Source of the DNA: a bacterium
GTDB taxonomy: Bacteria > Patescibacteriota > Minisyncoccia > Phycocordibacterales > UBA9973
Length of the DNA: 64,000 bases
Assembly (NCBI GenBank): GCA_037130655.1
Contig: JBAXSP010000002.1
Span: 13,125-77,124 of the forward strand
Direction: 5' to 3'
The position numbers and the translations under genes are program-made. Within the stretch, counting starts at the first letter, position 1; every line of letters begins with the position of its first letter. Below the pieces are notes generated by a model. It ran no database searches. It was not told the origin of the DNA and saw nothing but the letters and a program-made list of their open reading frames with translations. This document shows, in pieces, positions 57,257 through 61,042 of the stretch.

Positions 57257-57532
57257 TTAGTATAGCACAGTCGTGCCATTGAATTTCACCCCTTCTTTTT
57301 TCAAAAGCGCAATTTTGGCCGATTCTCCACCTCGATTGTATTCACCAACATGCCTATCGCTTCTGATTACCCGATGACACGGGACAGTCAAATCATAATT
57401 ATTTTTCATCACTGTGCCGACAGCACGAGGTGCATTTGGACTATCGGCTTTTTCAGCAACCTCCTTGTAGGTAAGCACGTTGCCTTGTGGGATCTTGCGA
57501 ACAATAGCAAGTACTTTTTCTTTAAAATTCAT
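57257..57532 (-). CDS. methylated-DNA-protein-cysteine methyltransferase, stand-alone C-terminal domain
   Basis: 91 aa with the active-site PCHRV(I) motif; matches only the MGMT C-terminal (DNA-binding) domain. Confidence 0.7.
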   Translation of the reverse strand: MNFKEKVLAIVRKIPQGNVLTYKEVAEKADSPNAPRAVGTVMKNNYDLTVPCHRVIRSDRHVGEYNRGGESAKIALLKKEGVKFNGTTVLY

Positions 57533-57581
57533 AGGTCGATTATATAATAAAAATCCCCTTTCGGGGATTTTTATTGAAATA

Positions 57582-58175
57582 TTATTTCTTCTTTTTCGCT
57601 ACAACTTTCTTTGTTGCAACTTTTTTAGCTGGAGCCTTTACTTCTTTCTTAGCTGGAGCTTTTGCTACAACTTTCGCAACTGTCTTAGATTCCACAACTT
57701 TTGCCACTGGAGCTTTTGTTGCAACTGTAACAGGTTTTGGTTGAGACATTTTTTCAATTGCACTGATCAAACGATCAAGCTTTGTACTGATTTCTGACAA
57801 TGCTTTTTTTGTATCACCGTTATCTGATGCAGGTTTTGCAAAAGATGGTCGTTGTTCGAAATTTGTATTTGATGTACGTTTTTCAAATTTGTTACCAAAA
57901 TCTCTTTTTGGTCCACGGTCACCACCTTGTCCTCCTTCTCTTTTTGCACCGAAACAATCGTTACAAAAAACTGGTTTGTCGCCATTTGGACGAAATGGAA
58001 CTTCACAAGTTTTACCACATTCACTACAAGTAGCTTTGTGCATCATTGTGTCTCGATCACCTCCGCGATCTCCACCGCGATTTCCTCCGAAACCTTTATT
58101 TCCAAAACTTGGACGACCACCACGGTCACCACCTCTAAATCCTCCTTCTCTTTTACCTCCTTGGAAATTTCCCAT
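57582..58175 (-). CDS. nucleic-acid-binding protein: RGG/RGD-rich N-terminus, CxxC...CxxC zinc ribbon, histone-H1-like Lys/Ala-rich tail
   Basis: GGFRGGDRGGRP repeats; CSECGKTCEVPFRPNGDKPVFCNDCF; C-terminal KAPAKKEVKAPAKKVATKKVVAKKKK. Confidence 0.6.
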   Translation of the reverse strand: MGNFQGGKREGGFRGGDRGGRPSFGNKGFGGNRGGDRGGDRDTMMHKATCSECGKTCEVPFRPNGDKPVFCNDCFGAKREGGQGGDRGPKRDFGNKFEKRTSNTNFEQRPSFAKPASDNGDTKKALSEISTKLDRLISAIEKMSQPKPVTVATKAPVAKVVESKTVAKVVAKAPAKKEVKAPAKKVATKKVVAKKKK

Positions 58176-58267
58176 ATATATTAGTTAACTTTTTTATAAA
58201 ATAGAAATTACTCAAATGCGTAAGTTCTATAAATTAAACCGCTTCGCTAGCGGTTTAATTGAGCCTA

Positions 58268-58531
58268 TTATGAAAGGTGTTTTGAAACGAGCTTTGTCAT
58301 TTCAAACATACTTACTTCAGCTTTTCCACCAAACACTTTTTTCAAATTTTCATCAGCAAGAATGTTACGCTTGTTTGTTGGGTTTTGTAAATCGTGCTTT
58401 TTAATGTACACCCAGATTGCTTTGACTACTTCTGAACGAGGCATTGGACCTTTTCCAACAACTGCCGCCAATTCATCACTGATAGTCATAGGTTTCATAA
58501 ATGCAGAGTTAACCTTTTTTTCTATTGCCAT
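58268..58531 (-). CDS. SWIB/MDM2 domain protein
   Basis: 87 aa; ISDELAAVVGKGPMPRSEVVKAIWVYIKKHDLQNPTNKRNILADENLKKVFG matches the SWIB/MDM2 fold consensus. Confidence 0.8.
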   Translation of the reverse strand: MAIEKKVNSAFMKPMTISDELAAVVGKGPMPRSEVVKAIWVYIKKHDLQNPTNKRNILADENLKKVFGGKAEVSMFEMTKLVSKHLS

Positions 58532-58684
58532 AATTTTTTTTAAATATATCTCTTTCCCCTTTAGAAAGAGGTTCTAGATACGATTACATTATAATAGCAT
58601 TGATTATACCACAGATAGACACATAATGACTAGTCTTTCTATCGAGGATTATATAAAAAGATACTTTTGCGATATACTACAGAA

Positions 58685-58924
58685 ATGGAAGATGAAGACG
58701 AAATAATCATAACAAAAGATGCGCACGGCACTATTTTGGCCGATGGTGACAGTGTGACCATTATCAAAGACCTCAAAGTCAAAGGAAGTTCTCTTGTTCT
58801 CAAACAAGGAACCAAGATCAAAAACATCAAATTGACCGATGATGAAGCATTGATCGAGTGTAATGCAGATGGCATCAAAGGACTTGTCCTTCGAACTGAA
58901 TTTTTGAAAAAATTAAACCAATAA
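58685..58924 (+). CDS. PhnA-like C-terminal domain protein
   Basis: DGDSVTIIKDLKVKGSSLVLKQGTKIKNIKL resembles the PhnA/YjdC C-terminal domain. Start at MEDEDE, 6 nt after TATACT. Confidence 0.55.
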   Translation: MEDEDEIIITKDAHGTILADGDSVTIIKDLKVKGSSLVLKQGTKIKNIKLTDDEALIECNADGIKGLVLRTEFLKKLNQ

Positions 58925-60880: not shown

Positions 60881-61042
60881 TTATGCAGCAATTTCTTCAG
60901 TTGCTGTTTCTTCTACAGTTTCTGTAGCTTCTGCATCAACTGGAGTTGCTTCTTCTTCAGCAACAGGAGCCATAGTAGCTGCTGTTGTTTCTTCTGTAGT
61001 TACTACTTCTTCTGCAGTAACATCTTTGATTTCGTCTGACAT
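60881..61042 (-). CDS. small, highly acidic low-complexity protein (53 aa), not in ORF track
   Basis: Manual translation: MSDEIKDVTAEEVVTTEETTAATMAPVAEEEATPVDAEATETVEETATEEIAA. Followed by the hairpin cactcctttcggagtg. Confidence 0.3.
   Translation of the reverse strand: MSDEIKDVTAEEVVTTEETTAATMAPVAEEEATPVDAEATETVEETATEEIAA

What the first reader, a model, noticed from the sequence alone, without database searches (positions are those of the whole stretch)
57582..58531. Adjacent chromatin-like pair: RGG-box / zinc-ribbon / histone-H1-like-tail protein next to a stand-alone SWIB/MDM2-domain protein
The 197-aa protein has an N-terminal Arg-Gly-rich region, a CxxC-x17-CxxC ribbon (CSECGKTCEVPFRPNGDKPVFCNDCF) and a C-terminal (K/A/P/V) repeat tail like histone H1 or Hc1. 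The next gene is a clear 87-aa SWIB/MDM2-domain protein. SWIB domains are eukaryotic chromatin-remodelling modules that are rare in bacteria (best known in Chlamydiae). Finding one beside an H1-like-tailed zinc-ribbon protein suggests a nucleoid-organising pair.
Basis: partly seen in the sequence, partly recalled or inferred. Interest (0 to 1): 0.65.

Follow-up and report, generated by a model that had tools for sequence, protein, structure and literature searches.

The report
Two neighbouring small basic proteins, unlinked

Summary
On the minus strand, 58268-58531 encodes an 87-aa stand-alone SWIB/MDM2 protein (Pfam E=8e-32; predicted fold TM 0.79 to solved SWIB domains). 57582-58175 encodes a 197-aa protein with four RGG boxes, one CxxC-x17-CxxC zinc module (PF23477/TIGR04272, E~1e-16), a conserved amphipathic helix and a Lys/Ala/Val/Pro tail (+15 charge). 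The host is a Patescibacteria (Paceibacteria/Nomurabacteria-like) MAG, and identical proteins already carry these names in NCBI.

The "pair" reading is not supported. SWIB lies within 6 kb of the zinc-protein gene in only 5 of 80 species-level genomes. The zinc-protein gene lies within 5 kb of SWIB in 6 of 80 metagenome loci. That is as often as unrelated neighbours such as EngB, a cold-shock protein, a helicase and a cupin. Orientation and spacing vary, and hairpins usually separate the two genes.

SWIB is not rare here: at least 8,000 database clusters, many 85-97% identical. The zinc module occurs in about 5,000 50%-identity clusters, often as 2-5 tandem copies.

Best reading: two independent small basic proteins that associate with nucleic acids. 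Their function has not been tested, and DNA versus RNA binding of the zinc protein is unresolved.

The parts
58268..58531 (-). Stand-alone SWIB/MDM2-domain protein, 87 aa, pI 9.7
   Evidence: ORF. Pfam SWIB E=7.9e-32, full-length profile match. PDB sequence hit to yeast UAF30 at E=1.9e-17. AF2 model pLDDT 82.9; Foldseek TM 0.79 to 1v31, with BAF60, MDM2 and eIF2D SWIB folds also hit. An identical NCBI entry is named 'SWIB/MDM2 domain-containing protein'.
57582..58175 (-). CxxC-x17-CxxC domain protein, 197 aa, pI 10.15, net charge +23.5
   Evidence: ORF. PF23477 and TIGR04272 at E~1e-16. An identical NCBI entry is named 'CxxC-x17-CxxC domain-containing protein'. More than 1,343 homologues of 170-215 aa in Patescibacteria.
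58044..58175 (-). Residues 1-44: conserved MGNFQ start and an Arg/Gly-rich region with four RGG boxes, predicted disordered
   Evidence: Composition: 17 G and 7 R in 44 residues. Conserved in alignment A1. pLDDT about 47-58.
57927..58043 (-). Residues 45-83: zinc module (C50, C53, C71, C74; invariant EVPFRP, K67, P68, F75, K78), folded as a beta-hairpin plus helix
   Evidence: Pfam and NCBIfam match to residues 45-79. Invariant columns. AF2 strands 46-49 and 56-59 and helix 72-83, pLDDT 65-83.
57822..57926 (-). Residues 84-118: mixed-charge R/D/K/G/F linker (DRxPRRDF-like repeats), predicted disordered
   Evidence: Alignment A1. pLDDT about 46-52.
57744..57821 (-). Residues 119-144: conserved amphipathic helix (invariant L126, K132, D134, R135, L136, E141)
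   Evidence: AF2 helix 119-144, with 10-residue block means of 88 and 93 over residues 121-140. Invariant columns. A KLDxφ-type motif (φ = hydrophobic residue) is also present in distant multi-zinc relatives.
57585..57743 (-). Residues 145-197: Lys/Ala/Val/Pro low-complexity tail (17 K, 0 R, net charge about +15), ending AKKKK
   Evidence: Composition. Conserved as a K-rich tail in 61 of 74 species-level homologues. pLDDT below 50.
58232..58260 (-). 12-bp stem-loop in the 92-nt SWIB/zinc-gene spacer, followed by UUUAUAG; a possible weak terminator
   Evidence: RNA fold: 106-nt region MFE -22.4 kcal/mol, z=-2.9. The best 45-nt window, which holds the hairpin, gives -14.3 kcal/mol. It was not flagged by the terminator scan; its U-tract looks too short for that scan's T-run rule, which is my reading of the rule and not a tool result. 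Strong hairpins sit at the same place in L120 (-36) and L015 (-22.2).
57546..57575 (-). 13-bp stem-loop with flanking A and U runs directly after the zinc-protein stop codon; terminator-like on both strands
   Evidence: Terminator scan. RNA fold -18.2 kcal/mol, z=-4.0.
58603..58632 (-). Sigma-70-like promoter match upstream of SWIB (TAGTCA-18-TATAAT with TG); a consensus match only
   Evidence: The 6 promoter-like sites found in the region are close to the 4.6 expected from shuffles, so this is weak evidence.

Best explanation
These are two separate genes for small, basic proteins that probably associate with nucleic acids, in a Patescibacteria (CPR) genome. They are neighbours through loosely conserved local gene order, not because they form a dedicated two-gene system.

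Gene 1 (SWIB, 87 aa) is the Patescibacteria version of the bacterial stand-alone SWIB protein. It is a single MDM2-like helical fold whose known role elsewhere is to dock partner proteins. By inference it acts as a small adaptor on the chromosome, because bacterial SWIB domains are repeatedly fused to enzymes that act on DNA.

Gene 2 (197 aa) is the single-module form of a modular family built from CxxC-x17-CxxC zinc modules joined by RG/RD-rich linkers. By inference, the zinc module with its invariant aromatic and basic residues is the recognition unit. The RGG boxes and the Lys/Ala/Val/Pro tail would add non-specific electrostatic binding to a polyanion (DNA and/or RNA). The conserved amphipathic helix would drive self-association or partner docking, so that the protein can bridge or coat nucleic acid.

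Shown here: the domains, their conservation, the predicted order and disorder, the charge, and the lack of conserved linkage. Inferred: nucleic-acid binding, oligomerisation, and any role in the nucleoid.
For: Domain identity.

Architecture of the zinc family:
- The layout is conserved.
- Only the zinc module and helix 119-144 are predicted ordered.
- An exhaustive domain-only search found 5,069 representative clusters. The best-scoring hits are 100-340 aa proteins with 2-5 tandem modules joined by RG/RD/RS linkers, and many end in the same helix plus K/A/V tail.
- Methanosarcina mazei small proteins with this domain bind zinc by ICP-MS (a metal-content assay) (PMC12704099).

No specific linkage:
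- 5 of 80 and 6 of 80 loci show proximity, with tandem, convergent, divergent and interrupted arrangements.
- Control neighbours recur equally often.
- No gene is a regular immediate neighbour of the zinc-protein gene.
- SWIB homologues in other long contigs have unrelated neighbours, as do zinc-protein homologues.
- Hairpins lie between the two genes in the window, L120 and L015, and an extra 84-aa ORF lies between them in L010, L011 and L020.

SWIB and DNA:
- NCBIfam matches to the C-termini of topoisomerase I/SWIB and topoisomerase III models.
- PADLOC match to the C-terminus of an orphan methyltransferase model.
- The Waddlia stand-alone SWIB protein Wcw_0377 binds heparin and gives genome-wide ChIP peaks (PMC6426960).
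Against: - Proximity within 5-6 kb (5 and 6 loci observed against about 1.0 and 0.6 expected for random placement in an 0.8-Mb genome) is above chance if loci are treated as independent. A weak functional association cannot be excluded, although unrelated neighbours show the same excess.
- No promoter-like site was found in the 92-nt spacer, and the spacer hairpin has a poor U-tract. Read-through co-transcription in this particular genome therefore remains possible.
- Nothing here demonstrates nucleic-acid binding by either protein. The zinc module has no solved or characterised relative.
- SWIB domains are primarily protein-binding modules, so DNA association may be indirect.
Confidence: 0.6

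Rival explanations
1. One reading: the two proteins form a dedicated nucleoid-organising pair. The SWIB protein would work together with the H1-like-tailed zinc protein, for example by docking the zinc protein's conserved amphipathic helix (residues 119-144) in its MDM2-like cleft.
For: - The genes are adjacent on the same strand with a 92-nt gap.
- The same tandem order is found in L015, L096 and L120, and in L010, L011 and L020 with one ORF in between.
- Proximity is 5-10 times the random expectation.
- The SWIB fold matches MDM2 structures that bind an amphipathic helix, and the zinc protein has a strongly conserved amphipathic helix.
- One relative (L015) fuses a K/A tail directly to SWIB.
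Against: - More than 90% of loci from either side lack the partner nearby.
- The excess is matched by unrelated neighbours.
- Orientation and spacing vary, and hairpins or an extra gene separate the two.
- SWIB proteins are 84-97% identical across lineages whose zinc proteins are only 45-60% identical, which gives no sign of co-evolution.
Confidence: 0.1
2. The zinc protein is mainly an RNA-binding protein, such as an RNA chaperone or a ribonucleoprotein or translation-associated factor, and not a nucleoid protein. SWIB would then be unrelated to it.
For: - RGG boxes and tandem small zinc knuckles joined by RG/RS/RD linkers are typical of eukaryotic RNA and single-strand binders such as FUS/EWS/TAF15 and CNBP (my own knowledge).
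- The family's modular 1-5 zinc-module layout.
- The commonest gene within 6 kb is an ABC-F-type ATPase, in 15 of 81 loci by the clustering (one search gives 15 of the 73 loci where the zinc gene was called). Cold-shock protein and EngB genes recur at 6-7 loci.
Against: - These neighbour frequencies are low and not position-specific.
- The K/A/P/V tail is the kind found on bacterial DNA-condensing proteins such as Hc2, AlgP and DdbA (PMC3643593).
- No RNA-binding domain profile matched.
Confidence: 0.3
3. The zinc module is a protein-binding transcription-factor finger (DksA/TraR-like, TFIIB-ribbon-like or anti-sigma-like), and the protein tethers the transcription machinery to DNA through its tail, as Streptomyces DdbA does.
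For: - It has the same CxxC-x17-CxxC spacing as DksA (my own knowledge).
- DdbA combines an H1-like domain with a DksA zinc finger (PMC3643593).
- In two Oscillospiraceae genera a 92-97 aa zf_Tbcl + zf_Tbcl_2 protein lies directly downstream of a sigma-70-family gene.
- The M. mazei authors suggest a role in transcription.
Against: - hhalign of the family profile against E. coli DksA gives probability 0.8%.
- No zf-dskA_traR Pfam hit at E<=1.
- No sigma-factor or RNA-polymerase gene recurs near the Patescibacteria genes.
Confidence: 0.1
4. The SWIB protein is exported to act on the chromatin of a host organism, an option raised in the literature for Patescibacteria and Chlamydiae.
For: This is raised as an open question in PMC12455944. 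Waddlia Wcw_0377 reached the nucleus when expressed by transfection in 293T cells (PMC6426960).
Against: - The N-terminus (MAIEKKVNSAFMKP) has no hydrophobic signal-like segment.
- The very high conservation (84-97% identity across many lineages) fits a housekeeping intracellular role.
- Known Patescibacteria hosts are mostly bacteria or archaea (my own knowledge).
Confidence: 0.05

Closest known systems
Bacterial stand-alone SWIB proteins (Chlamydia CT460, Waddlia Wcw_0377) and topoisomerase I-SWIB fusions
   Same: Single SWIB/MDM2 domain of about 85-90 aa and basic. The SWIB protein here matches the SWIB ends of the NCBIfam topoisomerase I/SWIB and topoisomerase III models (E 1e-19 to 1e-21). 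Wcw_0377 binds heparin and gives ChIP peaks along the whole genome (PMC6426960).
   Different: The host is a free-living or episymbiotic CPR bacterium, not an intracellular chlamydia. No SET-domain or topoisomerase-SWIB partner was seen in the window. DNA association of this protein is untested.
Plant plastid nucleoid protein SWIB-4 (Melonek et al. 2012, as reviewed in PMC4154389)
   Same: A small basic SWIB protein combined with a histone-H1-type basic motif. It compacts DNA and complements an E. coli hns mutant. The relative at L015:4839-5165 has SWIB plus an N-terminal K/A tail in one chain.
   Different: In the window the SWIB protein has no basic tail. The K-rich tail is on a different, unlinked protein.
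CxxC-x17-CxxC small zinc proteins of Methanosarcina mazei (TIGR04272/PF23477)
   Same: The same zinc-module family by profile. Zinc binding was shown by ICP-MS for two members (PMC12704099). Function is unknown there too.
   Different: The archaeal proteins are little more than the module itself. The window protein adds RGG boxes, a conserved helix and a K/A/V/P tail.
Streptomyces DdbA (histone-H1-like domain plus DksA-type C4 zinc finger)
   Same: It combines a Lys/Ala-rich H1-like DNA-condensing segment with a CxxC-x17-CxxC zinc finger and a long helix. The H1-like half binds and condenses DNA (PMC3643593).
   Different: The domain order is reversed and the zinc finger is not homologous (hhalign probability 0.8%; no Pfam DksA hit).
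Bacterial H1-like low-complexity tails (Chlamydia Hc1/Hc2, Pseudomonas AlgP, mycobacterial HupB C-terminus)
   Same: Lys/Ala/Pro-rich repeats with high positive charge. A three-module relative (P0241) gives a sub-threshold HC2 match (18.4 bits against a cut-off of 40).
   Different: The resemblance is in composition only. The window protein gives no Hc1, HC2 or linker-histone hit at E<=1, and its tail is unusually Val-rich (23%).
Eukaryotic RGG-plus-zinc-finger nucleic-acid binders (FUS/EWS/TAF15, CNBP); comparison from my own knowledge
   Same: Disordered RGG boxes flank small zinc fingers. Relatives have tandem zinc modules. The predicted behaviour is multivalent and polyanion-binding.
   Different: No sequence or fold relationship was shown. 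The zinc finger type differs, and there is no RRM (RNA-recognition motif).

Membership tests
SWIB/MDM2 domain (Pfam PF02201) | Profile match above the curated threshold across the whole domain | tested here: met
   109.3 bits against a cut-off of 25, profile positions 1-74 of 74, E=7.9e-32.
SWIB/MDM2 domain (Pfam PF02201) | SWIB/MDM2 three-dimensional fold | tested here: met
   AF2 model with mean pLDDT 82.9. Foldseek TM 0.79 and rmsd 1.2 Å to 1v31, with BAF60, RSC, MDM2/MDMX and eIF2D SWIB domains also hit at probability 1.00.
SWI/SNF-type chromatin remodelling complex subunit | Association with a Snf2-family ATPase and other complex subunits | not tested
   No remodeller gene was seen among the annotated neighbours, but the whole genome was not searched. 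Bacterial stand-alone SWIB proteins are not known to be part of such complexes (my own knowledge).
Bacterial DNA-associated stand-alone SWIB protein (Wcw_0377-like) | Binds the organism's own chromosome | not testable with these tools
   Known only by analogy (PMC6426960) and from fusions of SWIB to topoisomerase and methyltransferase models.
CxxC-x17-CxxC domain (TIGR04272 / Pfam PF23477 zf_Tbcl_2) | Profile match above the curated threshold | tested here: met
   60.1 bits against 36 (NCBIfam) and 60 bits against 27 (Pfam), residues 45-79.
CxxC-x17-CxxC domain (TIGR04272 / Pfam PF23477 zf_Tbcl_2) | Four cysteines with the CxxC-x17-CxxC spacing, conserved in relatives | tested here: met
   C50, C71 and C74 are invariant and C53 nearly so in alignment A1. 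Spacing read from the sequence.
CxxC-x17-CxxC domain (TIGR04272 / Pfam PF23477 zf_Tbcl_2) | Binds zinc | not testable with these tools
   Shown by ICP-MS for two M. mazei members (PMC12704099).
Histone H1 / chlamydial Hc1-Hc2 family | Sequence homology to a linker-histone, Hc1 or HC2 profile | tested here: not met
   No such Pfam family at E<=1 for the window protein. A relative, P0241, reaches only 18.4 bits against the HC2 cut-off of 40.
Histone H1 / chlamydial Hc1-Hc2 family | Lys/Ala/Pro-rich, highly basic low-complexity segment | tested here: met
   Residues 145-197: 32% K, 21% A, 23% V, 9% P, net charge about +15. A K-rich tail is present in 61 of 74 homologues.
DksA/TraR C4 zinc finger | Homology to the DksA zinc finger and coiled coil | tested here: not met
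   hhalign probability 0.8% against E. coli DksA. No PF01258 hit.
Conserved two-gene module (operon) of SWIB plus zinc protein | Adjacency conserved across lineages beyond the background level of shared gene order | tested here: not met
   5 of 80 and 6 of 80 loci show proximity, equal to the control neighbours. Orientation varies and genes or hairpins intervene.

The most novel reading that the evidence does not exclude
The RGG/zinc-module/helix/K-tail protein could be a major, phylum-wide organiser of the nucleoid or of ribonucleoprotein in CPR bacteria, working as a bacterial counterpart of H1- or FUS-type multivalent, condensate-forming proteins. Its invariant amphipathic helix (L126, K132, D134, R135, L136, E141) would be the ligand of the MDM2-like cleft of the near-invariant stand-alone SWIB protein. 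The two would then form a chromatin-like system even though their genes are usually unlinked.
Probability: 0.07. Interest if true: 0.7.

Novelty: new member of a known kind. Interest (0 to 1): 0.3.

Why it matters
The finding as proposed, a chromatin-like gene pair, would have suggested a eukaryote-style nucleoid system in ultra-small bacteria. The evidence does not support that.

Two points of moderate interest remain:
- Patescibacteria carry an exceptionally conserved stand-alone SWIB protein, 84-97% identical across many lineages.
- They also carry a very widespread, wholly uncharacterised family of mostly disordered, strongly basic zinc-module proteins with RGG boxes and H1-like tails.

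Both are good candidates for abundant nucleic-acid-associated proteins in organisms whose chromosome and RNA biology is almost unknown. Both are small enough to test directly in vitro.

Tried and rejected
- **Zinc protein against solved structures:** the PDB sequence-profile search and Foldseek gave only insignificant coiled-coil, PHD or LIM-type hits (best E 0.23 and 0.64).
- **Helix plus tail query:** a protein search with residues 112-197 found only the same family (5 hits), so this part is not a widely shuffled module.
- **DksA relationship:** suggested by the identical cysteine spacing, but rejected.
- **Phage and defence libraries:** PHROGs gave nothing. PADLOC gave only a SWIB-like end of an orphan methyltransferase model.
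- **Literature:** searches for PF23477, TIGR04272, IPR026363 and zf_Tbcl found no functional study.
- **Longer SWIB entries:** the 95-105 aa SWIB entries in the database look like mis-called upstream starts and not real extensions. L015 is the exception.
- **Census of zinc-module fusions:** I could not list fusions to larger enzymes such as helicases. The exhaustive search shows only its best 150 hits, which are dominated by multi-copy small proteins.
Full report
**What is there.** The 87-aa protein matches Pfam SWIB/MDM2 over the full profile (E=7.9e-32, 109 bits against a cut-off of 25). Its best solved relative by sequence is yeast UAF30 (E=1.9e-17). An AlphaFold2 model (mean pLDDT 82.9) superposes on solved SWIB domains at TM 0.79 (1v31), and also on BAF60, RSC, MDM2/MDMX and the eIF2D SWIB domain.

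The 197-aa protein matches Pfam PF23477 (zf_Tbcl_2, "probable treble clef zinc finger") and NCBIfam TIGR04272 ("CxxC-x17-CxxC domain") at E~1e-16 over residues 45-79. The N-terminal 44 residues hold 17 Gly and 7 Arg, with four RGG triplets. The last 53 residues hold 17 Lys, 11 Ala, 12 Val and 5 Pro, with net charge about +15. The whole protein has pI 10.15 and net charge +23.5.

**Host and family context.** Identical proteins exist in NCBI on a 158.9-kb MAG contig, already named "CxxC-x17-CxxC domain-containing protein" and "SWIB/MDM2 domain-containing protein". Named relatives are Candidatus Nomurabacteria, Paceibacterota and many other Patescibacteria/CPR lineages. Neighbouring genes are ordinary small-genome genes: an MFS transporter, a metallophosphoesterase, DoxX, a 91-aa MGMT-type DNA-binding domain protein, a YjdM/PhnA-domain protein, a cupin, an EVE-domain protein, a cold-shock protein and the EngB GTPase.

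**The zinc protein is one form of a large modular family.**
- More than 1,343 homologues of about 170-215 aa were found.
- A 28-sequence alignment shows one conserved layout: MGNFQ start, RG-rich region, zinc module (invariant C50, C57, EVPFRP, K67, P68, C71, C74, F75, K78), R/D/F-rich linker, helix (invariant L126, K132, D134, R135, L136, E141) and a K/A/V/P tail ending in AKKKK.
- Among 74 species-level homologues, 61 have the K-rich tail, 52 have the KLDRL-like motif and 50 have the RG-rich N-terminus.
- AlphaFold2 predicts order only for the zinc module (two short strands plus helix 72-83) and for helix 119-144. Everything else is below pLDDT 50-60.
- An exhaustive search with the 41-residue module alone found 5,069 representative clusters at E<=0.001. 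The best are 100-340 aa proteins with 2-5 tandem modules joined by RG/RD/RS-rich linkers, and several end in the same helix plus K-rich tail.
- In Oscillospiraceae the module is paired with the related zf_Tbcl domain in 92-97 aa proteins.
- The only experimental data I found are from M. mazei, where small proteins with this domain bind zinc. Their function is unknown (PMC12704099).
- No solved structure is related by sequence or fold. The identical cysteine spacing of DksA is a coincidence (hhalign probability 0.8%).

**The pair is not conserved.** I anchored on the zinc protein in one genome per species (80 loci, 6 kb of flank requested on each side). SWIB lies nearby in 5 loci: tandem in L015, tandem with an extra 84-aa ORF in L010, L011 and L020, and convergent in L021. 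I then anchored on the closest SWIB relatives in metagenomes (80 loci). A zinc-module ORF lies within 5 kb in 6 loci, and only 2 of these (L096, L120) have the window's tandem order, although 59 loci had enough downstream sequence to show it.

Random placement in an 0.8-Mb genome would give about 1.0 and 0.6 such loci, so there is an excess. The same excess is seen for functionally unrelated window neighbours:
- Near the zinc-protein anchor: cupin 8, EngB 6, cold-shock protein 6, helicase 6, MGMT-like 5, SWIB 5.
- Near the SWIB anchor: EngB 7, cold-shock protein 7, zinc protein 6, helicase 5.

The excess therefore reflects a loosely conserved block of gene order among related genomes, not a specific coupling. 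No gene is a regular immediate neighbour of the zinc-protein gene. The most frequent are a GIY-YIG protein (5 of 73), then the ABC-F ATPase, SWIB and EngB (3 of 73 each). Four long contigs examined individually show unrelated neighbours for each gene.

**Transcription.** A 13-bp hairpin with flanking A and U runs follows the zinc-protein stop codon. A 12-bp hairpin sits 8 nt after the SWIB stop codon. The 106-nt spacer region folds at -22.4 kcal/mol with z=-2.9, and the 45-nt window holding the hairpin gives -14.3 kcal/mol. Its U-tract is poor and the terminator scan did not flag it. No promoter-like site was found in the spacer. In L120 and L015 the same spacer holds strong terminator-like hairpins (-36 and -22 kcal/mol). 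Separate transcription is therefore likely in relatives, but read-through in this genome cannot be excluded.

**SWIB in bacteria.** The premise that SWIB is rare in bacteria no longer holds. All 8,000 scored candidates passed E<=0.001, and the 120 best are 84-100% identical proteins of 82-105 aa, where named from Patescibacteria. This is striking conservation for so small a protein. A 2025 study already reports SWIB/MDM2 genes in Patescibacteria and asks what they act on (PMC12455944).

Bacterial SWIB domains are fused to DNA enzymes: topoisomerase I and III models and an orphan methyltransferase model. The Waddlia stand-alone SWIB protein associates with the whole chromosome (PMC6426960). Plant plastid SWIB-4, which has an H1-like motif, compacts DNA (PMC4154389). 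One relative found here (L015) carries an N-terminal AKK-repeat tail on the SWIB protein itself.

**Most likely mechanism.** What is shown is the domains, their conservation, the predicted disorder, the charge and the absence of linkage. The rest is inference.

I read the zinc protein as a multivalent nucleic-acid binder. The zinc module with its invariant aromatic and basic residues would be the recognition unit, since it is the unit repeated in relatives. The RGG boxes and lysine tail would provide backbone contacts. The amphipathic helix would provide self-association or partner docking. The tail favours DNA or the nucleoid, as in Hc2, AlgP and DdbA (PMC3643593). The RGG and tandem-knuckle design and the weak recurrence of ABC-F, cold-shock and EngB genes nearby favour RNA. 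I cannot decide between them.

I read the SWIB protein as a small protein-docking adaptor working on the chromosome.

**Verdict.** Both proteins are members of catalogued families, and the exact sequences are already annotated as such. The zinc-module family remains functionally uncharacterised and is worth an in-vitro look. Interest is 0.3.

Noticed in passing
L015:4839-5165: A SWIB homologue in a related genome carries an N-terminal Lys/Ala tail (MAAKKAVAKKVVAKKAAPKKAVKKAG) ahead of the SWIB domain (Pfam residues 37-106). SWIB and an H1-like tail are thus in one chain, as in plant plastid SWIB-4.
   Followed up: partly
L167:2830-3108 and L168:2824-3117: In the Oscillospiraceae genera Pusillibacter and Subdoligranulum, a 92-97 aa protein with zf_Tbcl (PF13451) plus zf_Tbcl_2 (PF23477) lies directly downstream of a sigma-70-family gene. 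This may hint at a link between this zinc-module family and transcription.
   Followed up: partly
L010, L011 and L020, between the SWIB and zinc-protein genes (e.g. L020:3039-3293): An 84-aa ORF (MKISVIAKTNAKAESVERV...) is inserted between SWIB and the zinc-protein gene in three related genomes. It looks YggU/DUF167-like from memory and was not scanned against any profile library.
   Followed up: no
window 60881-61042 (-): A 53-aa, very acidic ORF (32% Asp/Glu; rich in Thr, Ala, Glu and Val) lies in the gap upstream of the EngB gene. Whether it is a real gene is unknown.
   Followed up: no
window 57257-57532 (-): A 91-aa protein consists only of the MGMT DNA-binding domain (Pfam E=3.4e-27) and retains a PCHR motif. 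Its gene overlaps the start of the downstream DoxX gene by 23 nt. A similar gene lies near the zinc-protein gene in about 5 of 80 relatives.
   Followed up: partly
window 58667-58924 (+): An 85-aa YjdM/PhnA-domain protein appears to lack the N-terminal zinc ribbon usual in this family. It is the only plus-strand gene in a long run of minus-strand genes.
   Followed up: no
window 58268-58531 and its homologues: The stand-alone SWIB protein is unusually conserved: 84-97% identity over the whole length in more than 100 database clusters, far more than the neighbouring zinc protein (45-60%).
   Followed up: partly
window 57582-58175, residue C57: A fifth cysteine (C57, in KTCEVPF) is invariant in the Paceibacteria-type subfamily. 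It is replaced by Thr, Arg or Met in more distant multi-module relatives, and its role is unknown.
   Followed up: no
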